Of a DNA stretch of 64,000 nucleotides, positions 3,538 to 58,971 are shown one piece after another. The position numbers were made by a program, and so were the translations under genes. Source of the DNA: Prorocentrum cordatum (Eukaryota); NCBI GenBank assembly GCA_963575745.1, contig CAUYUJ010000315.1, forward strand, positions 1-64,000. The letters are read 5' to 3'. Positions within the stretch are counted from its first letter, which is position 1. Every line of letters begins with the position of its first letter. The notes under the pieces are model-generated. The model did no database searches and was not told where the DNA came from. It saw nothing but the letters and a program-made list of their open reading frames with translations.

Positions 3538-3889
3538 CTCCCCCTCCCCCCTCCCCCTCCCCCTCCTCCCTCTCCCCTCCTCCTCCTCCTCCTCCTCTCC
3601 TCCTCCTCCCTCCTCCCCTCCTCCTTCTCCTCCTCCTCCTCCTCCTCCTCCTCGCTCCTCCTCCTCGCTCCTCCTCCCTCCTCCTTCCTCCTCCTCCTCT
3701 CCTCCTCCTCCTCCCTTCCTCATCCCTTCATCCTCCTCGCTCCGCCTCCTCCTCCTCCGCCTCCTCCTCCTCGCTCCTCTTGCTCCTTCTTGCTCTTCCT
3801 CGCTCCTCCTCGCTCCTCCTCTCCCGCCTTGCTCTCCCTCCCCCTTCTCCTCCCTCTCCCCCTCCCCCTCCTCCTCCTTTTGTTCTCCG

Positions 3890-4266
3890 TATCATTCTTC
3901 TTATGATTATAATTCTTCTCCTTATTAACATTATTAGTGTTATTATGTCAAGTATGATTCGTATTCTTATCTCATCATGATTATGATTATTATGATTAGT
4001 ATTAGGTTTATTACTATTATTTTTACTATTGTTATAATGATAATAATAATTATTATTATTAGTATTATTATTATTACTATTACTAATATTATTAATAATA
4101 ATAATACTATTATTATTGTTATTAATAATAATAATATTAATATTAGTGTTAGTATTACTAGTGTTATTATTATTATTAATAATATCAGTATTATTATTAT
4201 TATTAATAATATTATTATTATTAGTATTATTAGTGGTAGTATTATTATTATCATCATTATTATTAT
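3890..4266. repeat. (ATT/AGT/AAT)n AT-rich triplet microsatellite
   Basis: Visible degenerate ATT run in otherwise GC-rich DNA. Confidence 0.95.
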
Positions 4267-5089
4267 CCTCCTCCTCCTCCTCCTCCTCCTCCTCCTCCTC
4301 CTCCTCCTCCTCCTCCTCCTCCCCCTCCCCCCCGAGGTCGCGGCGCCGCGCGCGCGCCGCTCACAGCTCGATGTCGACGTCCATGGCTCCCGCGAGGTCC
4401 AAGCCGCCCGCGCCCGCGCCGCTCGCGGACGACGCGGCGCCGCTCGGGCTCCCCGCGCCCCCGACGCCGCTCGCGGGCGACCCGGCGCCGCTGGGGCCGC
4501 TCGCGCCCTGGCGGGGAGCGCCGAGACCGCCGGGCGCCCAAGTCGTCGAGCTTGAGGAGGAGCGAGGAGGGAGGAGGGGAATGATGAGGAGGAGGGGGAG
4601 GAGAAGGGGGGAGAAGAGGAGGAGGAGGAGGAGGAGGCGGAGGAGGAGGAGGAGGAGGAGGAGGAGGAGGAGGAGGAGAGGGAGGAGGAGGAGGAGGAGG
4701 AGGAGGAGGAGGAGGAGAGGAGGAGGAGAGGAGGAGGAGGAGGAGGAGGAGGAGGAGGAGGAGGAGGAGAGAGGAGGAGGAGGAGGAGGAGGAGGGGGAG
4801 CAGGGGAAGGAGGGGGAGGAGGAGGAGGAGGAGGAGGGGAGAGGAGGAGGAGGAGGAGGAGGAGGAGGAGCGGAGGAGGTGGGGAGGAGGAGGAGGAGGA
4901 AGAGGAGGAGGAGGAGGAGGAGGAGGAGGAGGAAGAGGAGGAGGGGGAGGAGGAGAGAGGACGAGGGAGGAGGAGGGAGGGGGGGCAGGGGAAGGAGGGG
5001 GGGGAGCAGGAGGAGGAGGAGGAGGAGGAGGAGGAGGAGGAGGAGAAGGGGGAGGAGGAGGAGGAGAAAGTGGAGGCGGAAGAATAAGG

Positions 5090-5960
5090 ACCAATGTAAA
5101 CGCATTACTCATCAACGATGTTTCAATACACCTTCCCTCCAAGCTCCCTCTTCATAGGCCCCAACAAAGGTCCATTCCCACTGAGGGCAATGCCACATTG
5201 GGGGACAACCGTGTGAAAATTCTGAAGGGTGGCCAAAAAACCATTCGCAAGGCTTCAACTTCAAGAGTGAACCTGACTAATGCGTCTTGACGATCCCGAA
5301 CCGTGCCAGAACATCTTTTCTGGGACTTCAACACCGCGAATCAACGTGTACATGTTGGGACCTGGCAACCTGGAATTGTTCCCAAACATAATTTCTGGTA
5401 CGTTGACCATGAGAACAAATAGAACTCTTGCAAATGTTTGAAGCGAATGTGCGCGGCGCCGAGGCGAGAGTCACATGTTGAAAAGGGACCACCCTCAATT
5501 CGTGAAGCTCTTGCAAATGCAGGCGCCAAGGCGAGAGTCACATTTTGAAACCACCCGCCCTCAATCCGCGACACTTTGGCCAAATTTTAGAATTCATGCG
5601 CGCGGCGCTGAAGCAAGAGTTGCATTTAAAAAAACGAACCACCCTCAATCCGTGAAGGTCTCGCACAATGTTCGAAATAATGTTCGCGGCGCTAAAGCGA
5701 GAGCAACGTTTTGAAAACCACCGTTCCCCAATCCGTGAAACTCTTGCAAATTGCATATGTTTGGAGCGGATGTGCGCAGCGCTGAAGCGAAAACCACATT
5801 TTGGAAGCGACCCGCCCTCCAACTGTGAAACTGCTGCAAGCTTTAAGCTTGACGCTCACAACTGGTAAGGAAGTCTCGACCGAAACGCCTGGCCCGCCCT
5901 TGCGACTGGCCTCAGGGTGCGACAGGATGAAATTATTCGTTAAAACGGAAAAGGAATGGA
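5090..5960 (+). repeat. Dispersed repeat family A, copy 1 (unique head plus ~82-bp tandem subunits)
   Basis: Head CTCATCAACGATGTT...CCACTGAGGG is shared with the copies starting at 24670 and 35085. It is followed by units like GCGCGGCGCTGAAGCGAGA..CACATTTTGAAAACCACCCGCCCTCAATCCGTGAA and ends in GGGTGCGACAGG. Confidence 0.85.
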
Positions 5961-6084
5961 GCAGGGAGGAAGGGGAGGAGGGGGAATGGGAATGAGAAGG
6001 AGTACGACGAGGAGTAGGAACAGGAGGGGGAGGGGGATGAGGAGGAGGAGGAGGAGGAGGGAGAGGCCCAGAAGAACCTCAGCT

Positions 6085-7445
6085 GTCGATCGTCGGTCCT
6101 CGATCCTCGAGCCTGGAGCAGCGATCGGTCCCCGATCCTCGAGCCCCGACCCTGGGTCCTTGAGGGTCGAACGACCCTCGATCCTCGAGCCCCAATCCTC
6201 GACCCAGTCTGCACGGCCCCGGGGCCGAGAGAATACCACGCCGCCGCAGCGCTGGGCCCGACCAGGCCCAGGAAGAGCTCGGCCGTCGATCCCCGATCCT
6301 CGAGTCGCGCACGGCCCCTGAGGATCCATCGAGAGCCCCCGACGCTCGATCCCCAGACCCCCGACGTCATGATTTTTTCATGACGCGACCCCCAGAGGTC
6401 CAGACCCATTCCCCGGGACCGGTTTTTCATCCCGAGTCGTTTTTTGACGGTCCCGAGGCCCGGTAAGGGCCCTCAGAGGCCGAAAATAGCGAAAAACCTC
6501 CCGTCCTGATTTTTTTACGACGCCATCATGTCTGGGTCCCCGACTCTCGGTCCTGGAAGATCGGTCCATCCCCGATACCCGATACCCGATCCCCCGATCC
6601 CCGACCCAGTCTTGAGATGGCCCTGGGGCCCGACGTCGGGCTCCAGAGGCCGGGAGGTCTCGATGGGGCCCCAGGACACACAAAGAAAGACACACACAAC
6701 TGAGACTTTTCCCTCATGTCTTCCCGTATGTTCTGGGTGTCTGTCTTGCCCCCCACTTCCCACAAATAAATACACACACACAACCAAAAATATTCCCCAT
6801 CTCTTCCCATATGTTCTGGGCTTCTGTCTTCCCCCCCTCACTTCCCATATCTTCCCAGATGTTCGAGGGAATCGACGATTCATTGTGTCTGTGTGTGTTT
6901 GTTCTCTCCGGAAGGTCGGAGCGGATGAGAGGCCACCGGGGCCGAACACACCACGCCGCCGGGGATCTGGGCCCCGAAAGCTCAGCCAGAAAAAACACCT
7001 CGGCTGTCGATCGTCGAGCTGCGGCCCATCCGTCCTCGGGGATCGATCAGTCTCCGATCCTCGATCCCCGACTCTCGGTCCTCGAGGATCGATCGATCCT
7101 CGATCCTGGATCCCTGCAATCTCGATCCTCGATCCTGAATCGATCGATCCTCGATCGATCCTGGATCCCCGACTCTCGGTCCTCTCGGGGGCCCCCAAAC
7201 GGGGTGGTGACCACACCGTGCGGTGAGTCGGTGGGGATTCGGGGTCGCCGCACGGTTTTGGGACTCGGGTCGTTCTCCGAGGATGTCTCGGGCGATTGGG
7301 GCCTCCGAGGCCCCAAAACCGTGCGGTGACGGACCGTGCGGTGAGGTCTTGGGGGATTTCGAGGTCACCGCACGGTCTGTCACTGCACCGTTTCGGGGCT
7401 CCAAATCCTCGAGGATCGATCGATCCTCGATCCTGGATCCCTGGG
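6085..7445. repeat. GATC/TCGA-rich composite repeat region (CGATCCTCGA motifs) containing a family C segment at ~6350-6540
   Basis: Dense GATCCTCGATC motifs. 6350-6540 is homologous to 20257-20454 and 48274-48440. Confidence 0.7.
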
Positions 7446-7981
7446 ATCTGACAGAACACACCCTGGAACCAGAGAGCTTCCGAAAACTTCCGAACACCTT
7501 GATAAACTTCGGGGGGAACTCGAGACGCTAGCCTGATGTCTTGGCATCCAGCGGCCGTCTGGGACGATCTGGGCAACCGTGCAACCCCTGAACGCTCTCA
7601 GCGAGGTGCAGCCGCTGGAAGGCACCCCGATGCTGGAAAACCGCCGAGAACCGACAAGAACGTCCGAAAACTTCGAACCTGGAACTCGACGGGTCGATCC
7701 TCGATCGAAAAACTGCAACATCGCGAACAAACTGACGACTGGATCCCGGGACCCAATCTCTCTGCTGCCTTTTTCGAGCTGGCCCGATCGGTGGTAGTCC
7801 TGGGGCCCAAACCGGAAGAACGCGCCCAGCGTGAAAAAGATGGAACGCCCCAGGTCTCAGGGCCCCCCTCCTCCTCGCTCCTCGCTCTTCGCTCCTCGCT
7901 CTTCGCTCCTCGCTCCTCCTCCTCCTCCTCCTCAGTCCCCCCCTGCCCCCGTCTCCTCGTCCACCCCCCACCCCTCATCGC

Positions 7982-8046
<65 letters not shown>

Positions 8047-8065
8047 CTCCTCCTCCTCCTCCTCC

Positions 8066-8240
8066 TGCAAAACCCCGAGGAGGGTTCTGCACGGGAGCCT
8101 GGTAACAATGATGATGATCGGTCACCTTTATACTCCCGCACGGCGAAGCAAGTCTCAGTAGCTTCAGCCGTTAAACACTTGAGCCAAAGGCAACAGGGTT
8201 ACTATTCCTCCCCAGTCACCTGAACGCTTGCATGTTAACA
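8066..8240 (-). repeat. 3' LTR of copia element
   Basis: TGCAAAACCCC...CATGTTAACA, 174/175 identical to 18614-18788. Confidence 0.97.
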
Positions 8241-8250
8241 CCCCCCCCCT
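8241..8250 (-). other. Polypurine tract (PPT)
   Basis: CCCCCCCCCT on + reads AGGGGGGGGG on -, immediately upstream of the 3' LTR. Confidence 0.9.
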
Positions 8251-8650
8251 CGGACGCCAGTCCGCACTGGCTGACGGGGAGGTGTCTTCAAACGTAAAGA
8301 CAGGTTAAACCAAGCAACGTGCTGCACACAAATCGTTATATTGCCGAATTCGAAAGATCTCGTGACAACGTTTACGAGCACCACGTTTCTCAGACATGCA
8401 ACATGAGCTCAAGTAAACGTTCTTGCAGTCACAAGTTTAAGCGTAGCATCCAAAGTTTACACGGCAGGCTAGCATTTATATGATTTTGATGGTTTTCGCT
8501 TTTTATTCGCCAATACCTGCAGTAACTACAAAAGATGCACATGCACACAGATTCAGCTCAACAAGCCACTGCAACACGATTGTTAAGCCGAGTTAAGAGG
8601 GGAGATGAGGAAGAGCGTAAAAGAACAGCATGCCGGTCACCAGTCTCCGT

Positions 8651-11083
8651 TTACGAGCGGCGCGGGCGCCTCACTGACGGGGTGCGTGCGCCCCTGGACC
8701 TCGGTAGCCCACGGTGCCCCACACTGGCCGCTGTGTAGGACGACACCCTGTTAAGGGCCTGCATCGGGCTGTAATAGTCGGTGTCCAGGTACGCGTTAAT
8801 CCGCTCCTCGTCGTCGAGCCAGCACCCCTCGTCAAAGCTCTTGATGGACCCGTCAACAATGTTGTGGTAGGTGCCGATGGCCCTCCAGTAACTGGCGTGG
8901 GGAGCCTTCAACAGAGGTCTACCACCTGGATTGTTACGGAGGTGCTCCTCGACCGCAGCGCCGGTAAACGGGTTCACAGTCCAGGTCGGATCGGTAAGCC
9001 AGTTGGGGAAGTCGTCGCACGGTAACCATCCAAACCAGCAGAGCTTCTCACGATGGTCGCTTTTACGCTCGGTGATATGATCAGCAGGCCAATTGTCACG
9101 GTAAAGTGCCCTCATGGACCCCTGATCGTTAAGAGCGACATCTAAGATGGTCTGGTGCCAGTAGACTGGAGGCCTGTTGATGCTGCCCTTTAACTCCTCG
9201 GCGCTCCTGACCTCGAGGTCCTCGATGAAGTAGTTGCGGTAATGCACCTGGAGCCCGTTCATGTAACGGCAATAGAGCTTGGCAAGGTCAGGCGTCGCAA
9301 ACCGAATTACGGTAACTCCAGTCGAGATGTAACCGTGCGGCCCATAAGTGTCTTCCACCAGGTGCTTAACGGAGACCACGGTGGGGTTGCCGTGGGGCAG
9401 CATCCCTGCCCACGTTAAGAGAAGGCCGTTAAGCTGCTTCTCGTTCATCTCCGGCACCTTGTTGACGTACACCTGTGTGTCCGGGCAACTGTGGACGTCA
9501 AACCACGATGGGTGAAGATCGTCAACGTGGAGTGGTGGCACGTATTCGTCGTCAAACAGGGACTGTACGTGCCCAACTGCGTCAGCCCCCCACTCGTCAT
9601 GCTTGGCCAACTCCTTCTCCGTCAACTGAGATCTCCAGCTGCTCGGGCCCTTCAACACGGAGTAGCCGATGAAACCGTAAGCGTGTTGGCCGTTGATGTC
9701 AACGAACACTTCATCGTAGTCGTTAAGCTCCCGCCCCGTGTTGCCTTGAATATACCGACCACCAGGGGTCGTTAACCCCGCCTTCGCCACATGCCCGACG
9801 AAGTTGCCCTCAAACCTGCGCCAGTTGTCGCGCGTCTTCATCGTTAATGCGACTACTTCCCTGGGGTCAGGTTCCGCCTTGTAGTTAACGTCGTGGTCCT
9901 CGCTCCTGTCGTTCAGCATGGGCATGTGGCCGTTGACGTGGTACAGTGGGTGGTACACGGCCCTGGCAACGTTCCGAGAGTATGCCGCAAGCTGGTCGTT
10001 CGTGCGGTTAACAGCTTGAGGCTGCGGTGGCGGTATGTGCTGGGCCGATAACTTCTTGGGCTCCGGAGGCGGGGGCTTCATGCCGCTAACGCTGCTCGAT
10101 GCACTTGACTCGCCAAGCCCCGGAGGAGGCGGCTTGGGCGCCCTCGCGTTCACAACAGGGGCAGGACCTTTTGGTGCTTCGTCACGTTGACTGCTCTGCG
10201 CACGATCTTCCTCCATCTCCATGCCGATCTGCAGTAACTCTTCCAATTCCCGTTTACGCTCATGCATGGCCTTTGGTGCTTTCTTGTAAACAGGTTGCGG
10301 CACCGTTGACTGAGGGATCTTATTCGGCGACATGGACCGACCGAACCCTCCGGTCTTGGGTGTGGTGCCGGTAAGATCCTGAGCCGGGGGCGCGCCCGAG
10401 GCCACGGACTCGGCCGCCGCGGTGACGGCAACGGGTGGCGCCTTGGCGATTGCTGCCGTTGGGGGCAGGTCAGGTAACGGCGGAGGCACCTGCGGGATGA
10501 TGGTAGCCGAGGAACTGATCGGGTCATTCAAGAACCTCTGTAAACCTTCAAGTCTCTCGGTAACTCCCACCAACATGCGTAGTGCCGCATCCCGTTTGCC
10601 CTCGAAGTCCTGCAGGGGCGTGATGTTCTCGGTGAGGCGTCTGGCGGTGTTTAAGAGGTAACCAATGTTCTCGTTGATGCGCCTGTACTTGGTCGCATTC
10701 TCCGTCGTGTTAACCTCCGAGTCACGATTCTTGATGTTCATCTCCGTAATCGTCGCCATCAGAACGTTAATCTCGTCTTGCGCCCCCTTGAGGTTCTCGT
10801 TGACGTCGTCACTGGCGTGGATCAACGCAGCGTTCTGCCGCGTTAAGTCCTCGATCCTCTGCGCCATGTCGTCGGCAGCCCTCTGCGCCTCGTCAACGTG
10901 TTTGTCGTAGGCCCCGTGAAAGTTAATCGCCATGTTAGTGAGGGTCACGGTAAACGCGTGGGCAACGTTGACGATGTCGTCAACACGGCGATTGAGGTTC
11001 TCACGCGTAACCGGTCCATCCCCAGGCGGGCTCTGGTCGACCACGGAGCCGTTGATGGTGAGGTTGACCTGATGAGCCGCCAT
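8651..11083 (-). CDS. Copia accessory ORF3 (~810 aa): N-terminal coiled coil, Pro-rich linker, predicted RRM, Trp-rich C-terminal region
   Basis: Uninterrupted non-repetitive ORF between the pol stop (11171) and the PPT. First ATG at 11083 (the track starts at TTG 11107). RRM-like pattern QVYVNKVP...GVTVIRFATPDLAKLYCRYMNG...LEVRSA at ~9195-9480. The ORF is well supported; the domain calls are inferred. Confidence 0.85.
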   Translation of the reverse strand: MAAHQVNLTINGSVVDQSPPGDGPVTRENLNRRVDDIVNVAHAFTVTLTNMAINFHGAYDKHVDEAQRAADDMAQRIEDLTRQNAALIHASDDVNENLKGAQDEINVLMATITEMNIKNRDSEVNTTENATKYRRINENIGYLLNTARRLTENITPLQDFEGKRDAALRMLVGVTERLEGLQRFLNDPISSSATIIPQVPPPLPDLPPTAAIAKAPPVAVTAAAESVASGAPPAQDLTGTTPKTGGFGRSMSPNKIPQSTVPQPVYKKAPKAMHERKRELEELLQIGMEMEEDRAQSSQRDEAPKGPAPVVNARAPKPPPPGLGESSASSSVSGMKPPPPEPKKLSAQHIPPPQPQAVNRTNDQLAAYSRNVARAVYHPLYHVNGHMPMLNDRSEDHDVNYKAEPDPREVVALTMKTRDNWRRFEGNFVGHVAKAGLTTPGGRYIQGNTGRELNDYDEVFVDINGQHAYGFIGYSVLKGPSSWRSQLTEKELAKHDEWGADAVGHVQSLFDDEYVPPLHVDDLHPSWFDVHSCPDTQVYVNKVPEMNEKQLNGLLLTWAGMLPHGNPTVVSVKHLVEDTYGPHGYISTGVTVIRFATPDLAKLYCRYMNGLQVHYRNYFIEDLEVRSAEELKGSINRPPVYWHQTILDVALNDQGSMRALYRDNWPADHITERKSDHREKLCWFGWLPCDDFPNWLTDPTWTVNPFTGAAVEEHLRNNPGGRPLLKAPHASYWRAIGTYHNIVDGSIKSFDEGCWLDDEERINAYLDTDYYSPMQALNRVSSYTAASVGHRGLPRSRGARTPSVRRPRRS

Positions 11084-11170
11084 GCTTTCGTTCACGCCCA
11101 AGAGCAAGAGGTAATGGGTGGAGAAGGCTTTTATCGAGGCAGCTTGCTTGACAGAAATGAGCTGCGAATG

Positions 11171-12800
11171 TCAACATTCGGTAGCCGGCGCAAGACCATG
11201 CCTACCTGTTAATGCACATTGATTCGTGTTTCGTAGGTGTGCGCTCATGCTCTCACGACTGACATACTTGGTTAATGCATCAGCTGTGTTCTCATGTGTT
11301 CCTACTTTCACAATACGAAGTACTCCCTCCTTTACCTTTTGCTGTAACCACAGTTGACACACTTCAATATGTCTCACTTTCCCCAAACCTCGTCTGCTCG
11401 CAATGGCAATCGCAGCCGTGGCATCACTCTTCAGGGTGATCTCAGCTTCCAGGTTAAAATCTCTCAGCACTGCCTGAAGTCCTAGACCAACCGATCCTCC
11501 TTTTACAAGTCCATCATATTCTGCTTCCCCTGACGATAATGCAATCACACTTTGAGTTGTGCTCCAAGACTTTATAAGATGTTTACCCCACATCACTACT
11601 CCTCCACTCGTAGACTTCCTAGTTCGCTTACATCCTGCGAAATCCGTGTCAGTCCAAATCGTTAATTCTCGGGGCTGTTCCTGATATTGGTACACATAAC
11701 TGCTTCTGCTGTGGTACTTTAAATACTTTCCTAGCTTGACCAGACCTTTCCAAGAACCCATTGTTGGCTTTGACATGGTTCTAGCAAGCTCCTTTACTGA
11801 ATACTGTATGTCTGATCTGTCTTGAGCTAAATAATTCGCTCTGGCCGTCAATGCCTGATACCTCTTAGTCATGTTGGACGAAAGTTCCACCTCATCTCCC
11901 TCTTCAACTGGAATACGCTCACCTGGTACCTCAGTCCTCACTTCTACTCCCTCTAACTCAAGCTCTTTCACAATTATCTCTGCATGCCTTTGATCTGCCT
12001 CATATCTTAACCCTTCCTCAGTCCATTCTACTATCCTGTTAAGAATCCTGATCGCTTTCATGTCCTCCTTTCCTGGTCCAAGTCGTCCTCTCACTTTTAC
12101 TTCAAACTCCTCCTTTATTGTATTTTCAAACCAATCGAGATCATGGTCACCTCCTAATAGCGCGAAGTCATCCCCATGAACCGTCAACCATAAGGCTCGA
12201 ATCTCATGTTTGAATACGCGCGGTGACGCAACTCCACTCTTAAACCCAACCTCGATAGCAAAGTCCATGTAACAGTCTTCCCAATTGCTCGCTGCGTCCC
12301 TTTTTCCGTACATTGACTTTAATAGTTTTCCGCACATGCCTGGTTCATAATCCTCGTCTGGTAATCTGATGAATATGTCTTCCTTTGCCGGAGCGTAAAA
12401 GTAAGCTCGTTTAGTGTCAATGAATGCCAGCTTTAATCCTTTCTCGCGCTCGCCATTCGTGAATCCAACTCCTTCGGTAACTGCCATTGAAAAAAAGCAG
12501 TTTCTGTGCCTCCAGTGGAGGTGTAGCCGCAAATATATTCTTTTCCTTGGAATTGTATTTAACCTGCTGAGCCACTAGCCTTGACCTATGGTCTGGGCTT
12601 GACTCATCTCCTTTGTTAATGTCTATCCACCTGGTTCCGATGGGTGCCTTCCCCGTAACTTGCCAGCACACTTCCTCTTTCACTTTCTCGTACACCTTGT
12701 GTTTTCTGAATTGTTCCATTTCTTCTTGGCGTGCTGTTACAGTCTGTTTAGGATCAAGTTCGTTTCCAGTAACATCGTCCCAGGCTTGAGTTATCTCTCC
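11171..12800 (-). pseudogene. pol: Copia reverse transcriptase plus RNase H (frameshift at ~12490 in a T run)
   Basis: RWIDINKG..RSRLVAQ, DTKRAYF, KSMYG, VHGDDF (RT); WTDTDFAGC..RKSTSGG, LSSGEAEY, ADALTK (copia RNase H). Confidence 0.95.
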
Positions 12801-13314
12801 ATTTTCCTCGTGAACAACGTTGGTCATATTCATGGGGAGAGGGTTAACTGTACCAATTCTTTCACACGCCGCACAGGTGCTGGGCGTCTTGAACCAGCCT
12901 TCATGTTCACATGCACTGCATTTCCACTTGTGTGGAGCAATCTCGCCAACAGCCTCATACGTAAAGGTGGTGGAAGTGTTAACTGGTCCCTTCTTGAACA
13001 TTCTCCTTCTCTCTCTCCCTGTGGTTTCGTTCACGGGCCTGTCCTCGATAACCTTCCCCGTGTCTATGTCAACGGTAAGTCTCCTAATGCATGAACTCCA
13101 TTGTGGTCCATTTGGTCCTGGCAGCATCAATCTTTGAGTTCCATAATCCTTTCTCGTCCACGTTAGCTGGTGTTTGTGCTTTCTATCTTCGTTCGCACGT
13201 TCACATGCCCAGTTAGTCTCGCTTATCTGCATTTCACTTTGCTCCTCTTCGTCAACTTCCATGTTTGTTGCTTCTTCTTCTTTAAACGTACCCCCTTGGC
13301 GTCCGTCAATCTTC

Positions 13315-13975
13315 ATTTGTCGCGCAAGCCCTCTCAGTATCGCTCGGCACAATTTGTCTGGGTAAACTTCTGATCTGTGAGTTCTTCCGCCACCTGTTAA
13401 CTCCATGTGTCGATGTTGCCCTTTGCATCTCCAACTTAACTCGCGACCTATGGCCGGACTGTTTGTCATGAACTTGGTCGGTTTCTTAATGAACATCTCT
13501 TCACCTTTGACCATCTGCTTTAAGTCGTAACAGCACAAATCTCCATTGTAGACTTTAACATCTTTGTTCCTGAGCAACCGTTGCACTGTTGAAGTACCCC
13601 AACTGGTCGCCCCCGCGGGGTGTTCAAATAGAAAGTATAAACCATTTCGCCGTTGAATTTCGCAAAGCTCCATTGCGAACGTCAAATGCTTGATCCCGTA
13701 ATCCAATATTTGTTTTACTCGGTCAGTGCCTAATCTTTTAAAGTTGAACGTCTGAAGTCTGCTGAAAGCTGCGCACATGGGGCTCACCACCAGTAACAGG
13801 GCTGCTTTGGATTTGACGATCTTCTTCGCTTTCGCTCGCATAGCTGGCACATTAAAGTCCCATGGGTTACCATGTTGATCACGTGTTGTTAAGTCCATCG
13901 CTAACCCCAGTATCAGTCCCATGTTCTCTGCCATTCCTGTAACTCTCACCGGCGAATATGCCTCGGTCACGTGCG
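13315..13975 (-). CDS. C5 cytosine DNA methyltransferase domain inside copia pol (part of ORF 12417-14384)
   Basis: Motifs in order: I-like EAYSP, IV SPMC (catalytic Cys), VI FEHP, VIII-like DLCCYDL..KKPT, X-like YPDKLCRAI. Parallels the DIRS DNMT at 35858-36605. Confidence 0.8.
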
Positions 13976-14409
13976 CCTGAGTTTCATGTTGACTAGCTCC
14001 ATAAAGCTTGGTGGCTCTCCTCACCTCGTTCAATTGACGCACGACGTTCAATTCCCCGCTTGTCAACCATTCAACCAGCTCAGAGTTAAATCCCACCATG
14101 CTAAGCCCCGATCTGATATCGTTCACTTCTGACATTTCTTCATCTTGTTCCGGATTAAGTTGACGATGTTGAGTTGCCTGTTGATCTTCTTCGTCATGAT
14201 CACCCTCTGCTTTTCGTTTGATGGGTTCACTTGGGGGGTCTTTCATTTCTTCATCTTCCACTTCAAACTCGGTCCATCCGGTCCAGTAACCGTTCAAGGG
14301 GTTTCCCATGGCCCATGTTTGGTCATCTCCCTCTTCACCATACCAAGCGTCTTCGTGCTCATGTATCTCACCACTGTCAATCATGATGGCATGGGTAAAT
14401 CTTCTGGGT

Positions 14410-16041
14410 TTAAGTTTGTCCCAATCTACAGGACATCCACCATTGGTGGGAAAAGCTAACTCTTTTCTTGGTCTCCGGTGTTGACATATAACTTTGTTTC
14501 CTTTTTACTACCCACTCATCCTTTGCTTCCTCAACTTTAGCGCTCGGCGGAGGTGGCGCGTTGGTCCTCAGTCTTTTCGCTTGACTTTCTAATTCTTGAT
14601 TTTGATTTTCCGGCGCACGGCTTTTACTTTCGAGTCTCAGTTGGGCAGATGCTAGCCTTGCCTGGATGTTTGGGCTCTCTTGTTTCTTTAACCACTCGAT
14701 AACCCGAGTCCTGCAATCAGCGTTATGTGGTTTGTGCTCTTTGTCTCCTCTAACGAGACATTTGCATCCGTAACATCCCGGCGTCGGTCCCATTTTTAAA
14801 TATTCATGCTTCTTTACAGCGATTCCTCGTGCAATAAGCGGCTTCGTCTCAGGTGCAGTTAACTCTTGCTCTGGAAAATCCATGGGTACCATGATTCTAG
14901 ACTGTAATTCCATTCCCGCCGTACTGGGGTCAGGCTGCCAAGGTAAGCCCTTCATCTCGGTGATCTCGACAATGTTCCATCTTTCCGCCTCACTTCCTTT
15001 TCGCTTAAACTCGTGCGCCTTGATTGCTCCATTTGGTGTCCCAATAATCAACTCCTGACTCTTCTCGTTTATCCCCAAAAACACTCCACTTTCCCATCTC
15101 ATTTCAAGCTTCTCGCGGCCCTTGTGTGCAGGCGTCTTTAAGTACATGACGCATTCGCCAAATTCAGGAATTTGCTTATTAAACTTTCTTCCCCTGCACC
15201 TCTCATGGGCTGTCTTCCCATCTGTGTCTATCGTGAACTTGTTAATCAGAGAAGACGCATAGCTCACCAGCCATGGTATTATCGGGTGACTCTCACCAAA
15301 CTCAGTCTTATAATTGGCATCCAAGGCGCTCTTTAACGTTCTGACTTGACCCTGCACCGTCCTGACAGCCCTCTCGATTTCACCGTTGGCCTTTGAGTCA
15401 CCTACTGGACTGACTTCAACACCCATGTCAAGGTCACGCGACGCTTTAATTATGTTGGCCAGTGCTGTGATTGCCGCTTCTCCATCACTTTTGAGTATAA
15501 CCTTCTTATATCCGGTAAACCTGATCATGTCACATCCCACCTTTACTGAGTATGAGTCCACTCCTTTTTTCATCAACGCTCTGCTCCATGTTAATTTGGT
15601 CTCCCTGCAATGCATGACCACAATTGGGTTGCCATTGCTGGCACTTTCACCTTCTTCCTTTTTTCCCTTAAGCCACATATAGTCCATTGAAATCACTGGC
15701 ACGTTTCCGTTCCCTTCTCTTTTGCGTCTACGGCGATTGCGCCTGCGTGCTTTTCCTCTAACACAATGCGGGCACCAGCTTCGGTAAGGTAAATGCGTCG
15801 TGTTATGCGTCTCAACTTCCTCCTTTGAGGGCCTCATGTCACAGTAAACTTTCTTCGGTAGCTCCGCTTCATCGCTCACAAATACATCTTCCACATCACT
15901 CAACTCACTCTCGTTGCCCCCACTTTCACTCCCTTCGTCTCCTTCGGTATTAAAGACGTTTAAGTTTTCGCTTGGTCTTACGGGTAATGGGGGGCTTAGT
16001 AGAACAGGTCCGCCTCCAGGGTTCCCGGCCGCGGAAAACCC
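14410..16041 (-). CDS. pol: Copia integrase (entered by predicted -1 frameshift; frameshift lesion near 14450 downstream)
   Basis: HNTTHLPYRSWCPHC zinc-binding motif and DDE core MDY / KSDGE / NGEIERAV. The frame opens exactly at GGGTTTT (16035-16041). Confidence 0.93.
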   Translation of the reverse strand, partial: GFSAAGNPGGGPVLLSPPLPVRPSENLNVFNTEGDEGSESGGNESELSDVEDVFVSDEAELPKKVYCDMRPSKEEVETHNTTHLPYRSWCPHCVRGKARRRNRRRRKREGNGNVPVISMDYMWLKGKKEEGESASNGNPIVVMHCRETKLTWSRALMKKGVDSYSVKVGCDMIRFTGYKKVILKSDGEAAITALANIIKASRDLDMGVEVSPVGDSKANGEIERAVRTVQGQVRTLKSALDANYKTEFGESHPIIPWLVSYASSLINKFTIDTDGKTAHERCRGRKFNKQIPEFGECVMYLKTPAHKGREKLEMRWESGVFLGINEKSQELIIGTPNGAIKAHEFKRKGSEAERWNIVEITEMKGLPWQPDPSTAGMELQSRIMVPMDFPEQELTAPETKPLIARGIAVKKHEYLKMGPTPGCYGCKCLVRGDKEHKPHNADCRTRVIEWLKKQESPNIQARLASAQLRLESKSRAPENQNQELESQAKRLRTNAPPPPSAKVEEAKDEWVVKRKQSYMSTPETKKRVSFSHQWWMSCRLGQT

Positions 16042-16475
16042 TCAGCTGCGTTCACTTCACTCCTGGGATTGACAGCTTCCGCTGGCCCCCTCGGCACTGT
16101 GATGTTGAACTGAAACGTGCCGTTCTTCTCGTGGATAGTTGTGAATTTACCTGTGGCCTTATTCATGATGTGGCTCAGGGACCTCCCGCTAAGATCCTTG
16201 TCAAACACAACTCTATTTCCAGCGTTTACCATTTCTCTGACGGATCCCAGAACTTTGTTGACTTCCGCTACCTGGATCGGCATACTGACTGCGTTCCCAT
16301 GTTCATTTTTGCCCGTGATCACTCGTTGACCATAATTCTTTATCGTTGTCCCAGTCGCTGCGCTGCAATGCCTTCCCTGCTTTGACGCATTCGTATGCTT
16401 AATGGGGAAATGGGTGCCAACCTTGGGGGGTCCCACTGTATTATACGCCCCAGAGTCCACGGTAACCAGAGTCCA
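15996..16475 (-). CDS. Copia aspartic protease
   Basis: TLVTVDSGA active-site motif and downstream VLGSV..MVNAGNRVVFD. Separated from the gag frame by an apparent 1-nt lesion near 16475. Confidence 0.9.
   Translation of the reverse strand, partial: WTLVTVDSGAYNTVGPPKVGTHFPIKHTNASKQGRHCSAATGTTIKNYGQRVITGKNEHGNAVSMPIQVAEVNKVLGSVREMVNAGNRVVFDKDLSGRSLSHIMNKATGKFTTIHEKNGTFQFNITVPRGPAEAVNPRSEVNAAEGFPRPGTLEADLFY
16035..16041 (-). promoter_or_regulatory. Predicted -1 ribosomal frameshift site G_GGT_TTT with downstream stem-loop
   Basis: X_XXY_YYZ heptamer in phase with PR. The -1 frame has TGA immediately upstream and runs without a stop into integrase. Hairpin CCGGG-AAC-CCTGG begins 6 nt downstream. 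Confidence 0.8.
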
Positions 16476-18592
16476 CTCAGTGGCGGCACCGCGTTAATTT
16501 CTGGATCACAGTCCCGCATCTCAATTAGCCCAATTTCTCTGCATTTCTCTAGCCAACTTTTTTCCTGTTTTATGCTTTTACTTATCCTCTGGTCCCATTG
16601 ACTCACATGATTACAATCTCCGTTGCATTGATGCTCCTGGTAAATTCTTTTCAGACTCATCGCAGTGTTACGCGCCTTTTTCTTTCTGGCATATGAGGGC
16701 AGATCCCATTGCCCGTTCACCTCCTCAGTTGTGAGTGGGTCCAGTGGCACGTTCACTGCGTCCTTCATCTTAACGCTGAGAACATGTTGCGGTTGGCCGA
16801 ACGAGGTGGTTTGTTCACTTTCAGCGTTCATGGTAGGTCTCTCCTGTTCAACTTCGTTGGCGGTCTTCTTGGAGCCCGGGCAGTTAATGGCGATGTGCCC
16901 TTTGGCACCGCACTTGTAACACTCGCGCTCGCTATGGGGGGTGAATTTTCCTTGGCCTCCATAACTTCCACCCCACGAGCCACTTCCTTTACCACCTTAT
17001 TCACCGCCGATCTTACCTTTCACGTAGGATCCGTAGGTGGCCCGGTAACCCTTGCCTTTTCCGCCTTTGCCACCTTTACCTCCTTTGGTAAACTGTTTGG
17101 GTCTTGTGCAATTTCTGGCTAAATGACCCATGCCTCCACAATTGTAACATTTGGGGCCCGCGCCTTTACCTTTGCCTTTGTTTACGGCGTCAACTTCTTC
17201 ATGGTCCCCACTGTCACTCTCATTGGCCCAGGACCCGTAACTCCACGATCCATCTTCTGGCCACCAGTTTCCGCCCTCGTCAACCCATCCTGTTTGGTCC
17301 CAAACATTTTCGGACCCTTGACCCATCTCGTTGATGTTCCCAATGCCCATCGCATCTTTATTTGTTGTGTCTGAGTCGAGTTTCTTTTTACGCGCCCAGT
17401 CTTCGCACTTGGAGTATAACTTCTGGAATGAGTCAATGTTAAGCGCGTCGGGCGTTCGCCAGCACGCCTGCTGCCATTCATCAAACCAATCGTTCGCATG
17501 CACCATTATTGCCCTGAGTGCGGTGACTTTAAAAGGAAGAGGCAGCGAGTAATCTTTACCGTGCTTTTCAAGGTTTTCTGCCAATGCGCTCCACTCCTCA
17601 AGTCGGGTAACGGTGTCAATAATCTTCTTGGGCGGCTCAGGGTTCATGGCGTGCGTCATCTTTGATGACAGAGTCGCTCCAGTAACAGCCGAGTACCATG
17701 TGTATACCTTTTGCCAAGCCATGATTCCATCTCCATCCATAAGTCCCTTTAAATTTCCTCTTGCTTCTGCACCTTCGAGCTTCTCGTTGAGAATGTACCA
17801 TAAGTCTTCCTCCATTTGAGTTTTGTCTCCCTCGGTAAACTCGTACTCTCCTTTGTTGTCATCCTCTGCTTGTTTAGCTGAATTCGCCTTCAAGTATTCG
17901 CTTGCTGTTAATCGGCCGTTCATTATACGTATGATGTCATCATCGTCCTCCTCTGGTACAACTCCGTCGAGCGTCTCCAACTTCTTGTTTAGCATTTTCA
18001 GCGCCGGTCGGTAACTCGGTTTTACTTGGGCCAGTGCGTTTAAGAACTTGTCGTTCCAGTCTCTGAACTTTGCTCTTTCTCCACTGAAGTTCTTTAACGC
18101 CTGTAATGCCTTATATTCGCTTATCGGTTTACCGCTCCCGTGCTTGCTTCCACTTCCTCCTTTAATTGCTTCCGAAAGCTGACCAAATGTTTCAATCAAC
18201 TTTTCTTGTACCTCACTGTTGGTCTCCAACTCGGTGACTCTTTCCACCAGTCTGCGAGCATCCCTTTCAAGTGCAGCATTTCTTTTCGTAATCGCTAACA
18301 ACACGCTGTTGGTCTTATGAGCACTCTGTAACATTTGGAATGCCTCGGCGTTCGATACCTCCCTTCGGTCCTGTGTCACTCGCTCGTTGATGAACGTTGC
18401 GAGTCCGAAATGGTTCGCGAGTAACGCTGTCTGAACATAACTGAAGTCTCCGTTCAGGTATGCCTGCTCACACAGGTCGTTGAAGCGGTTAGGGTCCATG
18501 TTGACCCATGCGTCTCTGTCTGCCGGCACATTGAGGTTAACCGGCGGGTCGCCCTGCCCAGGCCTAGCTGCAGCGGCCGCCGCCGCCGCCAT
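16476..18592 (-). pseudogene. gag: Copia gag with two CCHC zinc knuckles (in-frame TAA at 16997-16999)
   Basis: ATG 22 nt after the 5' LTR. CYNCGGMGHLARNC precedes the TAA and CYKCGAKGHIAINC follows it in frame. ORF 16340-16831 is in the same frame. Confidence 0.9.
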
Positions 18593-18595
18593 GGC

Positions 18596-18613
18596 AACCG
18601 CGCTCCGCTACCA
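18596..18613 (-). other. Primer-binding site, initiator tRNA-Met type
   Basis: TGGTAGCGGAGCGCGGTT directly abuts the 5' LTR and resembles the canonical TGGTAGCAGAG iMet PBS. Confidence 0.85.
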
Positions 18614-18788
18614 TGCAAAACCCCGAGGAGGGTTCTGCACGGGAGCCTGGTAACAATGATGATGATCGGTCACCTTTATACTTCCGCACGGCGAAGCAAG
18701 TCTCAGTAGCTTCAGCCGTTAAACACTTGAGCCAAAGGCAACAGGGTTACTATTCCTCCCCAGTCACCTGAACGCTTGCATGTTAACA
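18614..18788 (-). repeat. 5' LTR of copia element
   Basis: Direct repeat of 8066-8240 with TG...CA termini. Confidence 0.97.
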
Positions 18789-19338: not shown

Positions 19339-19352
19339 CCTGAATTACAGGT

Positions 19353-19384
<32 letters not shown>

Positions 19385-29440: not shown

Positions 29441-29516
29441 AGCTGGAGGAGGAGGAGGAGGAGGAGGAGGAGGAGGAGGAGGAGGAGGAGGAGAAGGAGG
29501 AGGACCAGTGGAAACA

Positions 29517-58825: not shown

Positions 58826-58971
58826 GGCCTGCGCAGGCTCGTGGTGTGTGCCTCCGACGCTCCGAGGTGGGGCGGACCACCTCGGCGCTCGCCCTGGGGC
58901 TGACCAGGGGAAGGAATGCAAACTGGCCGCGGACTAGCGGTATCCACTTGTTCCCCTGCGGAACAAAGCAT

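What the first reader, a model, noticed from the sequence alone, without database searches (positions are those of the whole stretch)
8651..11083. Intact ~810-aa extra ORF (coiled coil plus predicted RRM) in the env position of a DNMT-carrying copia element
Seen: a long intact ORF between RNase H and the PPT with no obvious transmembrane segment, so not a typical env. It has an N-terminal heptad region (~10540-10930), a Pro-rich spacer, and a segment matching the RRM beta-alpha-beta-beta-alpha-beta pattern (VYVNKVP / NEKQLNGLL / VVSVKHL / GVTVIRFA / TPDLAKLYCRYMNG / LEVRSA) within a Trp/His-rich globular region. Inference: an RNA-binding accessory factor travelling with a cytosine methyltransferase, possibly an anti-silencing factor, RNA chaperone or targeting partner. 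I do not recognise this combination as described.
Basis: partly seen in the sequence, partly recalled or inferred. Interest (0 to 1): 0.8.

Follow-up and report, generated by a model that had tools for sequence, protein, structure and literature searches.

The report
RRM-fold third gene in copia retrotransposon
A family of jumping genes in dinoflagellate-type DNA carries, after its usual genes, a conserved extra gene for a non-membrane protein whose best-kept part is predicted to fold like a common RNA-binding module; what it does for the element is still unknown.

Summary
On the minus strand, 8651-11083 is an intact 810-codon ORF. It lies between the pol stop (TGA, 11171-11173) and the polypurine tract and 3' LTR of a 10.7-kb Ty1/copia-order element with 175-bp LTRs that differ at 1 base.

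It is a real, conserved gene and not a one-off capture:
- Full-length relatives (841-876 aa) exist at 68-70% and about 31% identity.
- One relative (L001) sits in the same third-ORF position of an intact gag-PR / INT-insert-RT-RH element.

The protein has a helical, heptad-rich N-terminal domain, a variable Pro/Ala/Ser linker, a roughly 350-aa C-terminal domain and an Arg/Ser tail. No transmembrane segment was found, so it is not Env.

A predicted structure (pLDDT 71.7) shows a beta-alpha-beta-beta-alpha-beta core. Foldseek, VIA-align and a profile search of PDB sequences all return RRM proteins. This core is the most conserved part of the protein. Pfam does not detect an RRM, and the RNP1 aromatic residues are missing, so the RRM is non-canonical.

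RNA binding, oligomerisation, how the ORF is expressed and any link to the pol insert remain untested. The pol insert is DNMT-like at fold level only.

Best reading: an element-encoded RNA-binding accessory protein, analogous to but not a member of L1 ORF1p. This is a new variant of the known "additional ORF" kind.

The parts
18614..18788 (-). 5' LTR, 175 bp, TG...CA. It contains a TATAAA-like box and a 10-nt string identical to the 3' end of the dinoflagellate spliced leader.
   Evidence: 1 mismatch in 175 against the 3' LTR.
18593..18613 (-). Primer-binding-site-like stretch starting TGG, directly after the 5' LTR and directly before the gag ATG (18592).
   Evidence: Sequence read. The same start is seen in L001.
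15999..18592 (-). gag with two CCHC knuckles, plus protease. In this copy it is broken by an in-frame TAA (16997-16999) and a frame change near 16466-16484.
   Evidence: In L001 this is one open frame. The TAA is read as a sense codon in all covering contigs of 4 runs.
14623..16056 (-). Integrase part of pol. It starts in the -1 frame relative to PR, as in L001.
   Evidence: 68% identity to L001 pol residues 1-475.
13293..13955 (-). Insert in pol between INT and RT with a predicted Rossmann-type fold closest to C5 cytosine methyltransferases. It carries a Pro-Cys motif and an E-H-P motif.
   Evidence: No Pfam or PDB-sequence match.
11174..12651 (-). Reverse transcriptase (RVT_2) and RNase H. 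There is a frame change at about 12494 inside a run of seven T.
11084..11173 (-). pol stop codon TGA (11171-11173) and an 87-nt spacer with a pyrimidine-rich tract and an AG just before the ORF3 ATG. This is a candidate (trans-)splice acceptor by inference only.
   Evidence: Sequence read. No RNA data.
8651..11083 (-). ORF3 (the finding): 810 aa plus stop, intact.
10469..11083 (-). ORF3 N-terminal domain (aa 1-205): conserved, helical, heptad-rich.
9899..10468 (-). ORF3 Pro/Ala/Ser-rich linker (aa 206-395). It is the least conserved part and varies in length.
   Evidence: One search lists a skip of 84 and a skip of 53 in this stretch (between-letters unknown, 1-2 contigs each).
8849..9898 (-). 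ORF3 C-terminal globular domain (aa 396-745), rich in Trp and His.
9230..9475 (-). RRM-fold core (aa 537-618; beta1 QVYVN, alpha1, long beta2-beta3 hairpin, alpha2, beta4). An extra hairpin runs to aa 651.
8654..8848 (-). ORF3 tail (aa 746-810), low model confidence, ending in a conserved Arg/Ser-rich stretch.
8241..8251 (-). Polypurine tract (GA followed by nine G) abutting the 3' LTR.
   Evidence: The G-run length varies among copies (place 8241).
8066..8240 (-). 3' LTR, 175 bp.

Best explanation
ORF3 is a genuine, selectively maintained third gene (an 'additional ORF') of a lineage of Ty1/copia-order LTR retrotransposons of dinoflagellate-type genomes. It is not an envelope gene.

Shown here:
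- It encodes a soluble protein of three modules: a conserved helical, heptad-rich N-terminal domain; a fast-evolving Pro/Ala/Ser linker; and a roughly 350-aa C-terminal domain built around a non-canonical RRM fold, ending in an Arg/Ser-rich tail.
- It keeps its place behind RNase H in two element lineages whose pol proteins are 56-75% identical, while ORF3 itself has drifted to about 31%.

Inferred:
- The RRM face, which keeps one aromatic residue (Tyr in beta1) and a near-invariant Arg in beta3, binds single-stranded RNA together with the basic tail. The most likely target is the element's own transcript.
- The N-terminal helices make the protein multivalent by self-association.
- It therefore acts as an accessory RNP factor for packaging, chaperoning, protection or export of the genomic RNA. 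It may shield that RNA from the host's pervasive trans-splicing. The layout is the same as L1 ORF1p (coiled coil + RRM + C-terminal domain), with a loose resemblance to Rev or SR proteins.
- It is probably translated from its own processed mRNA and not by read-through of pol.
For: A real and conserved gene:
- 73 representatives match at E<=1e-3, 12 of them at <=1e-30.
- Three full-length relatives of 841-863 aa are 68-70% identical.
- The distant cluster of P0010 has 11 of 11 members full length (876 aa), 8 of them on contigs of 10.4-11.3 kb.

Linkage to the element: L001 is 10,523 bp. It has 131-nt terminal repeats, gag-PR, a 1614-aa pol with the same insert, and ORF3.

Constraint by domain against the three close relatives: RRM 80-83% identity, rest of the C-terminal domain 61-70%, N-terminal domain 49-55%, linker 33-39% with gaps. 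Against L001 ORF3 the RRM is again the best-kept part (41% against 17-30%).

Among the rows shown for the 4 public runs (12 of 37 indel rows, 40 of 2131 letter differences), the only indel row inside ORF3 is an in-frame 3-nt gap.

Fold:
- The model has pLDDT 71.7 and pTM 0.76, with a beta-alpha-beta-beta-alpha-beta core.
- Foldseek against PDB: 39 of 48 listed rows name RRM-type proteins, the other 9 are chains of large complexes, and none names another fold (E 2.4e-3 to 2e-2).
- VIA-align wide: 33 of 50 rows name RRM-type proteins and 17 are complex chains. Z is 5.5-6.7 and rmsd 1.8-3.5 A over about 75-98 residues in most rows (up to 8.6 A over up to 116 in a few), within model residues 139-260.
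- A profile of 14 family members against PDB sequences: 4 of 4 hits are RRMs, the best being hnRNP M at E=0.007.
- Atlas feature search: the second to fourth nearest clusters are RRM_1/RRM_2 clusters at 0.84-0.85, which is a lead only.

Not Env: no TM-grade hydrophobic stretch.

Read-through unlikely: ORF3 is in frame with pol in the window but in another frame, and overlapping pol, in L001.

Separate codon regime in both lineages: GC3 is 0.73 for ORF3 against 0.42-0.55 for gag and RT-RH in the window, and 0.71 against 0.52-0.64 in L001.

The ORF1p layout is taken from abstracts seen in the listing (PMC6428221, PMC5940361).
Against: - No Pfam RRM model matches any of 9 family members even at E<=1.
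- The structural scores are middling (Foldseek E>1e-3, Z<8). The tool's own notes say such values can reflect a common arrangement only.
- RNP1 positions 3 and 5 are Val/Thr/Ala rather than aromatic in most members. That is also typical of RRMs that bind proteins.
- The element already has two CCHC knuckles in gag for nucleic-acid chaperoning.
The crude heptad count is only moderately convincing.
- No dN/dS could be computed, because no DNA of close relatives was retrievable.
- Whether the beta-sheet face is free in the large domain was not examined.
- One relative (P0025) is called from an upstream ATG that adds a hydrophobic 19-residue leader. That leader is homologous to the window's untranslated pyrimidine-rich spacer, so a signal peptide in some copies is not excluded.
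- The ORF being intact in this copy says little: the LTRs differ at 1 of 175 bases, so the insertion is young.
Confidence: 0.5

Rival explanations
1. The RRM-like core is a protein-interaction module, like U2AF-homology motifs or other occluded RRMs. On this reading ORF3 is an adaptor that ties Gag/Pol or the pre-integration complex to a host factor, for example for nuclear import into the dinoflagellate nucleus or for choosing the (GGA)n target. It would not be an RNA binder.
For: - RNP1 lacks the two aromatic residues in most members.
- Pfam RRM models fail.
- The RRM is embedded in a much larger conserved Trp-rich domain that could cover the sheet.
- A UHM (Tat-SF1) is among the structural matches (rank 31).
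- The basic tail could be a nuclear localisation signal.
- Both elements examined sit directly after a (GGA)n repeat.
Against: - The best sequence-profile matches are RNA-binding RRMs whose RNP1 is also non-aromatic (hnRNP M).
- A Tyr in beta1 and a near-invariant Arg on beta3 are kept.
- No partner has been identified.
- Integrase, not an accessory protein, usually sets target choice in LTR elements (general knowledge, not tested here).
Confidence: 0.2
2. ORF3 is a counter-defence factor: a suppressor of RNA-based or methylation-based silencing that works with, or compensates for, the methyltransferase-like domain in pol.
For: - ORF3 evolves much faster than pol (31% against 56-75% identity between the two lineages), as expected for a protein in conflict with the host.
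- It co-occurs with the DNMT-like insert in both elements seen.
- Accessory ORFs in the 3' position of retroelements often act on host defences (general knowledge; PMC7264820, passages read, discusses retroviral accessory factors).
Against: - Only two elements were examined, so co-occurrence is not a test.
- No similarity to any known silencing suppressor was found.
- The fast evolution is concentrated in the linker and N-terminal domain, while the RRM is well kept.
- Activity of the DNMT-like domain is itself unproven, and motif I was not seen.
Confidence: 0.12
3. ORF3 is a transduced host gene carried as a passenger, with no role in the element's life cycle.
For: - Its GC3 (0.71-0.73) is host-like and clearly above that of pol in both lineages.
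- Gene capture by LTR elements is documented (PMC7264820 and PMC5408684, abstract and passages).
Against: - It is kept full-length and in the same position in lineages as diverged as 47% (gag) to 75% (RT-RH).
- All 73 database matches look like this family or its fragments, apart from one low-complexity match. No separate host paralogue with a known name appeared.
- Conservation is domain-wise.
- A host origin long ago is compatible with a present function, so this reading only fails as 'passenger'.
Confidence: 0.06
4. ORF3 is an Env-like or movement protein that mediates cell-to-cell spread, as proposed for the env-like ORFs of plant Sireviruses.
For: - It has the same position (sense, between pol and the 3' LTR) and a predicted coiled coil.
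- One relative has a hydrophobic leader when called from an upstream ATG.
Against: - No transmembrane-grade segment in 6 of 6 members scanned.
- The window copy and the three close full-length relatives start at the Met without a leader.
- The conserved core is an RRM-type fold.
- There was no match to viral glycoproteins in BFVD. The best rows are giant-virus RRM proteins at E>=0.011.
Confidence: 0.03

Closest known systems
LINE-1 ORF1p (coiled coil - RRM - C-terminal domain; trimeric RNA-packaging chaperone of non-LTR retrotransposons)
   Same: Both are retroelement-encoded non-enzymatic proteins with a rapidly evolving N-terminal or coiled-coil part followed by a non-canonical RRM and a further C-terminal domain with basic residues. 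The ORF1p layout is taken from abstracts in the listing.
   Different: - There is no sequence relation. No Pfam hit of any kind for the RRM region appears at E<=1, and no L1 ORF1 family appears either.
- No L1 ORF1p chain appears among the listed structural matches.
- ORF3 lies 3' of pol in an LTR element that also has a Gag with zinc knuckles.
- It has a 190-aa Pro-rich linker and a much larger domain around the RRM.
- Trimerisation was not tested.
Additional ORFs (aORFs) between pol and the 3' LTR of LTR retrotransposons, including the env-like ORFs of plant Sireviruses (Copia) and Athila/Tat (Gypsy)
   Same: Position and sense orientation, presence in most copies of a lineage, and unknown function (PMC7264820, abstract and passages).
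   Different: ORF3 has no transmembrane segment and a predicted RRM fold. The host is dinoflagellate-type, not a plant. Three library searches found no paper that describes an RRM-type aORF in an LTR element: one search returned 0 papers, one search returned 1 unrelated paper, and one search returned none describing it among those listed.
ORF3 diversity of bdelloid rotifer LTR retrotransposons (GDSL esterase, DEDDy exonuclease, env-like)
   Same: This is a precedent for LTR elements carrying third ORFs of kinds that serve as ORF1 in non-LTR elements, i.e. module sharing between retroelement classes (PMC5408684, abstract).
   Different: The domains and the host differ. No shared sequence was found.
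Ty1-copia-like elements of Symbiodinium microadriaticum (SmTCL1-4, about 10 kb, heat-activated)
   Same: These are copia-order LTR elements of about 10 kb in a dinoflagellate (PMC5776459, first part of the text read).
   Different: The part of that paper read here describes only RT, integrase, RNase H and LTRs. It mentions neither a third ORF nor a methyltransferase-like insert. Its figure and supplements were not seen. Relatedness to the window's element was not tested.
DNMT-bearing retrotransposons of Symbiodinium (SymbioLINE-Dnmt, SymbioDIRS-Dnmt3) and Klebsormidium (Gypsy-Dnmt3)
   Same: A cytosine-methyltransferase-type domain sits inside a retrotransposon of the same broad host group (PMC5890265, passages).
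   Different: That paper states that the Symbiodinium Copia superfamily lacks any DNMT domain. Here the insert sits in a copia-order pol, is invisible to Pfam, and is DNMT-like only by predicted fold and a Pro-Cys motif.

Membership tests
Ty1/copia-order LTR retrotransposon | Two direct LTRs ending TG...CA, with a PBS after the 5' LTR and a polypurine tract before the 3' LTR | tested here: met
   175-bp LTRs with 1 mismatch, TGTT...TGCA ends, a TGG-starting PBS and a G-rich PPT.
Ty1/copia-order LTR retrotransposon | Integrase upstream of reverse transcriptase, and RT of the RVT_2 type | tested here: met
   The order is PR-INT-insert-RT-RH by alignment to the intact pol of L001. RVT_2 scores E=1.6e-7 in the window and 5.9e-17 in L001.
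Ty1/copia-order LTR retrotransposon | Short target-site duplication | tested here: inconclusive
   GGAGG is found on both sides, but the site is a (GGA)n repeat, so a match is expected in one of three phases.
RRM (RNA recognition motif) fold | beta1-alpha1-beta2-beta3-alpha2-beta4 topology | tested here: met
   The predicted model has this order at aa 537-618, with block pLDDT 79-95. This is a prediction, not a solved structure.
RRM (RNA recognition motif) fold | Structural similarity to solved RRMs | tested here: met
   Foldseek: 39 of 48 rows are named RRM proteins (E 2.4e-3 to 2e-2). VIA-align: 33 of 50 rows are named RRM proteins, Z 5.5-6.7. No other fold is named. The scores are middling.
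RRM (RNA recognition motif) fold | Match to curated sequence models (Pfam RRM_1 and relatives) | tested here: not met
   No RRM family at E<=1 in 9 members. A family profile does reach RRM chains in PDB weakly (E=0.007).
RRM (RNA recognition motif) fold | RNP2 and RNP1 consensus with exposed aromatic residues | tested here: inconclusive
   An aromatic residue (Tyr/Trp) is kept in beta1. RNP1 keeps Gly, the basic residue and the final Phe/Tyr, but positions 3 and 5 are mostly aliphatic. The consensus itself is recalled, not taken from a call.
RRM (RNA recognition motif) fold | Binds RNA | not testable with these tools
   Needs binding assays or CLIP.
Retroviral or Sirevirus Env-like protein | Signal peptide and at least one transmembrane segment | tested here: not met
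   The maximum 19-residue hydropathy is 1.18 in the window protein and at most 1.56 in 6 members. Caveat: P0025 has a leader when called from an upstream ATG.
LINE-1 ORF1p family | Sequence membership (Pfam L1 ORF1 trimerisation, RRM and C-terminal families) | tested here: not met
   Not among the Pfam hits at E<=1 for 9 members.
LINE-1 ORF1p family | Coiled-coil-mediated homotrimer | not tested
Only a crude heptad count and weak hits to generic coiled-coil families exist.
LINE-1 ORF1p family | First ORF of a non-LTR element | tested here: not met
   It is the third ORF of an LTR element.
C5 cytosine methyltransferase (for the pol insert) | Match to the curated sequence model or to solved DNMT sequences | tested here: not met
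   No Pfam family at E<=0.01. No DNMT in PDB by single sequence or by a 20-member profile. 120 listed relatives carry no precomputed DNMT family.
C5 cytosine methyltransferase (for the pol insert) | Fold similarity to solved C5 methyltransferases | tested here: inconclusive
   Foldseek: 39 of 41 listed rows are DNMT1/2/3, MET1, ZMET2 or bacterial C5 methylases (E 3.7e-3 to 7e-2). VIA-align: ranks 1-9 are C5 methylases (Z 6.8-7.4), but generic Rossmann dehydrogenases follow at Z 5.3-6.7.
C5 cytosine methyltransferase (for the pol insert) | Catalytic Pro-Cys (motif IV), E-N-V (motif VI) and glycine-rich AdoMet loop (motif I) | tested here: inconclusive
   Conserved S-P-M-C and F-E-H-P are present in the alignment. 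No F-x-G-x-G-like loop is seen where motif I would be. The motif definitions are recalled.

The most novel reading that the evidence does not exclude
A widespread dinoflagellate copia lineage has assembled its own RNA-handling and DNA-marking toolkit. The first part is an ORF1p-like, self-associating RRM protein in the third-ORF position. It coats the genomic RNA and keeps it from being cut up by the host's universal spliced-leader trans-splicing, and it is itself expressed from a trans-spliced subgenomic mRNA. The second part is a highly diverged cytosine-methyltransferase-fold domain inside pol. This would be the first copia-order element with either module. It would also be a case of convergent, or shared, use of the coiled-coil-plus-RRM design by LTR and non-LTR retroelements.
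Probability: 0.15. Interest if true: 0.8.

Novelty: new variant of a known kind. Interest (0 to 1): 0.58.

Why it matters
Additional ORFs of LTR retrotransposons are common, but almost none has an assigned fold or function. This one offers several things:

- It has a testable fold (RRM), a clear domain plan and deep conservation. It also belongs to a high-copy family: 729-2721 contigs per run were laid in 4 public runs.
- Dinoflagellates process every mRNA by spliced-leader trans-splicing and lack normal chromatin, so how retroelements complete their cycle there is an open question. An element-encoded RNA-binding protein is a concrete handle on it.
- The design parallels L1 ORF1p. If confirmed, this would show that LTR and non-LTR elements converge on, or exchange, the same RNA-packaging solution.
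- The pol of this lineage carries a DNMT-fold insert that profile methods miss. A published survey states that Symbiodinium Copia elements lack DNMT domains (PMC5890265).

Tried and rejected
- The window's whole genome is not held.
- tblastn of ORF3 against the window finds only itself.
- Pfam gives nothing for ORF3 except sub-threshold generic coiled-coil families.
- The search for related loci:
  - The closer alignment A4 found no relative in JGI metagenomes or in viral contigs.
  - The single protein P0098 found L001.
- No RNA holder was listed for the ORF, so expression and the proposed spliced-leader mRNA could not be examined.
- BFVD has no match at E<=0.001.
- The Atlas search on the N-terminal domain scores 0.82 or lower, which is noise level.
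- Rfam finds nothing at gathering score in 7500-19500.
- The third word-index protein search, with profile A3, added only 4 new fragments.
- dN/dS was not computed.
- Read-through of the pol TGA into ORF3 was considered, because they share a frame in the window. It was rejected as a general mechanism because L001 has ORF3 in another frame, overlapping pol.
- 'ORF3 intact while gag-pol is broken means domestication' was considered and rejected. The LTRs differ at 1 of 175 bases, so the copy is young. One frame break lies in a run of seven T and may be an assembly or slippage difference. The stop is private to this copy.
Nothing is claimed about them.


Full report
THE ELEMENT

The finding lies inside a minus-strand LTR retrotransposon spanning 8066-18788.
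- The LTRs are 175 bp (18614-18788 and 8066-8240), start TGTT and end TGCA, and differ at one base.
- The 5' LTR is followed directly by a TGG-starting primer-binding site and the gag ATG at 18592.
- The 3' LTR is preceded by a GA+G9 polypurine tract at 8241-8251.
- Both flanks are (GGA)n, with GGAGG on each side.
- Coding order is gag with two CCHC knuckles, protease, integrase, an insert of about 330 aa, RVT_2 reverse transcriptase and RNase H. This is copia order.

A perfect copy of the dinoflagellate spliced leader elsewhere in the window (58972-58992, motif recalled), together with the base composition, indicates a dinoflagellate-type genome. That is an inference.

THE ORF

From ATG 11083 to TAA 8651-8653 the minus strand encodes 810 aa. 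The pol frame ends at TGA 11171-11173 in the same frame. The 87-nt spacer is pyrimidine-rich and ends in AG just before the ATG. After the ORF come 402 non-coding bases before the PPT.

THIS COPY IS DEFECTIVE IN GAG-POL

I compared it with an intact relative, L001, in which gag-PR (857 codons) and pol (1614 codons) are each one open frame. Against that reference the window copy has four lesions:
- an in-frame TAA at 16997-16999;
- frame changes near 16466-16484, between 14501 and 14623, and at about 12494.

The PR-to-INT change of frame (-1) is shared with L001 and is presumably the normal gag-pol shift.

Contigs of four public runs (3 studies) laid at >=85% likeness show a high-copy family, with 729-2721 contigs laid per run.
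- At 16999 all covering contigs (3, 7, 3 and 1 in the four runs) read the letter that makes the codon a sense codon. The stop is private to this copy.
- Single-base gaps or insertions relative to the window occur in a minority of contigs at 12495 and at 14502-14567.
- Loose ends cluster at 12493/12495 and at 16468/16475.

The 12494 break lies in a run of seven T, so it could be slippage or an assembly difference. The LTRs are 99.4% identical, so the insertion is young. An intact ORF3 next to a broken gag-pol is therefore not evidence of special selection on this copy.

ORF3 IS A CONSERVED GENE OF THE LINEAGE

- An exhaustive HMMER search of 1.84 billion representatives gave 73 proteins at E<=1e-3 (38 at <=1e-10, 12 at <=1e-30). 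One of them (P0042) is a low-complexity match to the linker.
- A word-index search gave three full-length relatives of 841, 863 and 854 aa. They are 67-69% identical over the C-terminal 431 aa and alignable from the first residues.
- Cluster look-ups show full-length members in 2 of 3, 3 of 5, 4 of 8 and 11 of 11 members of four clusters. In the last cluster (876 aa, about 31% identical to the window protein), 8 of 11 members are on contigs of 10.4-11.3 kb.
- One such contig, L001 (10,523 bp), has 131-nt terminal repeats (LTR pieces), a (GGA)n flank, the same PBS start, gag-PR at 210-2783, pol at 2723-7567 and ORF3 at 7506-10136.

Identity of the window element to L001 by tblastn:

| Region | Identity |
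|---|---|
| gag | 47% |
| PR | 59% |
| INT | 68% |
| insert region | 56% |
| RT-RH | 75% |
| ORF3 (C-terminal 411 aa only) | 31% |

ORF3 is thus the fastest-evolving gene of the element, yet it is kept full length. Domain-wise identity to the three close relatives and to P0010:

| ORF3 part | Close relatives | P0010 |
|---|---|---|
| RRM core | 80-83% | 41% |
| Rest of the C-terminal domain | 61-70% | 26-30% |
| Tail | 65-68% | 28% |
| N-terminal domain | 49-55% | 17% |
| Linker | 33-39%, with gaps | 22% |

Among the 12 of 37 indel rows that one search printed, the only one inside ORF3 is a 3-nt (in-frame) gap at 9586. The 25 unprinted rows were not seen. A formal dN/dS could not be computed.

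WHAT THE PROTEIN LOOKS LIKE

- Transmembrane segments: none. The maximum 19-residue hydropathy is 1.18, and at most 1.56 in 6 members.
- N-terminal 205 aa: conserved, with an invariant-looking block around residues 50-65. It gives only sub-threshold hits to generic coiled-coil families. It has more heptad-compatible windows than any of 500 shuffles, though the best window is unremarkable.
- Residues 206-395: 16% Pro.
- C-terminal 416 aa: folded with a 66-row alignment. That alignment held the window protein, 3 proteins, and 62 of the 73 representatives. I left out 10 that match only the N-terminal domain or linker, plus P0042. The model has pLDDT 71.7 and pTM 0.76, and the last 70 residues are unstructured.
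- Core of the model: beta1 (537-541), alpha1 (548-556), a long beta2-beta3 hairpin (569-595), alpha2 (598-608), beta4 (612-618) and an extra hairpin (640-651).

Three searches agree on an RRM:
- Foldseek against PDB listed 48 rows at E 2.4e-3 to 2e-2. Of these, 39 name RRM-type proteins and 9 are chains of large complexes.
- VIA-align against 48,161 representatives listed 50 rows at Z 5.5-6.7, spanning mostly model residues 139-260. Of these, 33 name RRM-type proteins and 17 are complex chains.
- A 14-sequence family profile against PDB sequences returned 4 hits, all RRMs: hnRNP M at E=0.007, then HuR and PABP.

The Atlas feature search also pointed to RRM_1/RRM_2 clusters, at 0.84-0.85, which is a lead only. 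None of these scores is strong alone. Their unanimity and the topology make an RRM-type fold the clear best reading.

The RRM is non-canonical. Pfam RRM models miss it, and RNP1 positions 3 and 5 are aliphatic in most members. A beta1 aromatic residue, the RNP1 glycine, a near-invariant Arg/Lys and the final Phe/Tyr are kept. The protein ends in a conserved Arg/Ser-rich tail.

HOW IT PROBABLY WORKS

Shown: a soluble, modular, element-linked protein whose most constrained part has an RRM-type fold.

Inferred: it binds single-stranded RNA, most plausibly the element's own transcript, through the RRM face and the basic tail. It is made multivalent by its helical N-terminal domain. It would then be an accessory RNP factor.

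The plan (fast-evolving coiled coil + non-canonical RRM + C-terminal domain) is that of L1 ORF1p, described in the abstracts of PMC6428221 and PMC5940361 (listing). There is no detectable sequence relation, and the genomic position differs, so this is an analogy and not membership.

In a host where all mRNAs are trans-spliced, one attractive specific role is protecting or exporting the unspliced genomic RNA. This is speculation.

Expression by read-through is unlikely, because L001 has ORF3 in a different frame, overlapping pol. A separate processed mRNA is more likely but untested, since no RNA run was listed.

ORF3 has a distinct codon regime in both lineages: GC3 is 0.73 and 0.71, against 0.42-0.55 and 0.52-0.64 for the other genes. 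This fits either a foreign (host-like) origin or different expression.

THE POL INSERT

Pfam, a single-sequence PDB search and a 20-member profile PDB search found nothing, and 120 listed relatives carry no precomputed DNMT family.

A model was built from 122 rows (pLDDT 70.1).
- Foldseek: 39 of 41 listed rows are C5 cytosine methyltransferases, at E 3.7e-3 to 7e-2.
- VIA-align: ranks 1-9 are C5 methylases (Z 6.8-7.4), followed by generic Rossmann dehydrogenases.

The alignment shows conserved S-P-M-C and F-E-H-P motifs but no glycine-rich motif I. The insert is therefore DNMT-like in fold, and activity is open. PMC5890265 (passages) places Symbiodinium DNMTs in LINE and DIRS elements and says the Copia superfamily lacks them.

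LITERATURE

- Additional ORFs between pol and the 3' LTR are a known kind (PMC7264820, abstract and passages; PMC5408684, abstract).
- Searches for an RRM-type additional ORF in LTR elements or in dinoflagellates found nothing relevant. These searches cover only the held library.
- The part of PMC5776459 read describes about-10-kb copia-like elements in S. microadriaticum without a third ORF. Its figure and supplements were not seen and might show one.

VERDICT

The RRM prediction is supported at fold level. The functional interpretation remains open. The finding is a new variant of the known 'additional ORF' kind, of moderate to good interest.

Noticed in passing
window 13293-13955 (-); L001 4640-5602: The pol of this copia-order lineage carries an insert between integrase and RT. 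Its predicted fold is closest to C5 cytosine methyltransferases, and it has conserved S-P-M-C and F-E-H-P motifs. Pfam and PDB-sequence searches miss it, and no glycine-rich AdoMet loop was seen. A published survey says Symbiodinium Copia elements lack DNMT domains.
   Followed up: yes
window 8178-8187 and 18726-18735 (-); L001 about 100-116 and 10460-10476: Both LTRs contain a 10-nt string identical to the 3' end of the dinoflagellate spliced leader (4 matches in the window against 0.14 expected). The same motif, with 7 further bases, is conserved in the otherwise diverged LTR of L001. It could be a relic of, or a mimic of, the spliced leader in the element's transcript.
   Followed up: partly
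window 58972-58992 (-) and 53938-58986 (-): A perfect 21-nt spliced-leader string (0 expected by chance) abuts the start of a 1682-codon open frame with a weak RVT_1 match (E=2.7e-4, below the Pfam cut-off). It looks like a retroposed, leader-bearing copy of a non-LTR-type element.
   Followed up: partly
window 8054-8065 and 18789-18820; L001 1-39: Both elements examined (2 of 2) are inserted directly after a (GGA)n microsatellite. This hints at a target preference of the lineage.
   Followed up: partly
window 7749-7919 vs 19095-19265; 6350-6499 vs 20255-20404; 6510-6555 vs 20426-20471: Blocks of 83-93% identical sequence lie on both sides of the element, outside the LTRs, in an order that does not fit a longer LTR. 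The element seems to have landed in a locally repeated region.
   Followed up: no
window 8654-11083 vs 11174-18592; L001 ORF3 vs ORF1/ORF2: ORF3 has much higher third-position GC (0.73 in the window, 0.71 in L001) than pol (0.42-0.52) and gag (0.55-0.64) in both lineages. This compositional step inside the element is stable.
   Followed up: partly
window 16997-16999, about 16466-16484, 14501-14623, about 12494 (-): This copy's gag-pol has one in-frame stop, read as a sense codon in all covering contigs of 4 public runs. It also has three frame breaks, one of them in a run of seven T. The LTRs nevertheless differ at only 1 of 175 bases.
   Followed up: partly
window 11084-11140 (-); protein P0025: The pyrimidine-rich spacer before the ORF3 ATG, read in frame, is similar to a hydrophobic 19-residue leader. 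One relative gains that leader when it is called from an upstream ATG. Either the tract is conserved as a processing signal, or some copies encode a leader peptide.
   Followed up: no
window 27563-29530 (-), 38106-39761 (-): Two further open frames have RVT_1 matches (E=8.4e-11 and 4.5e-5). The window is dense in retroelement remains.
   Followed up: no
proteins P0104, P0140, P0227: Three relatives of the pol insert and of ORF3 carry the source label 'Pyramimonas sp.' (EukProt), at up to 83% identity to the window. This was recorded as given, and its meaning (true host or mixed culture) was not pursued.
   Followed up: no
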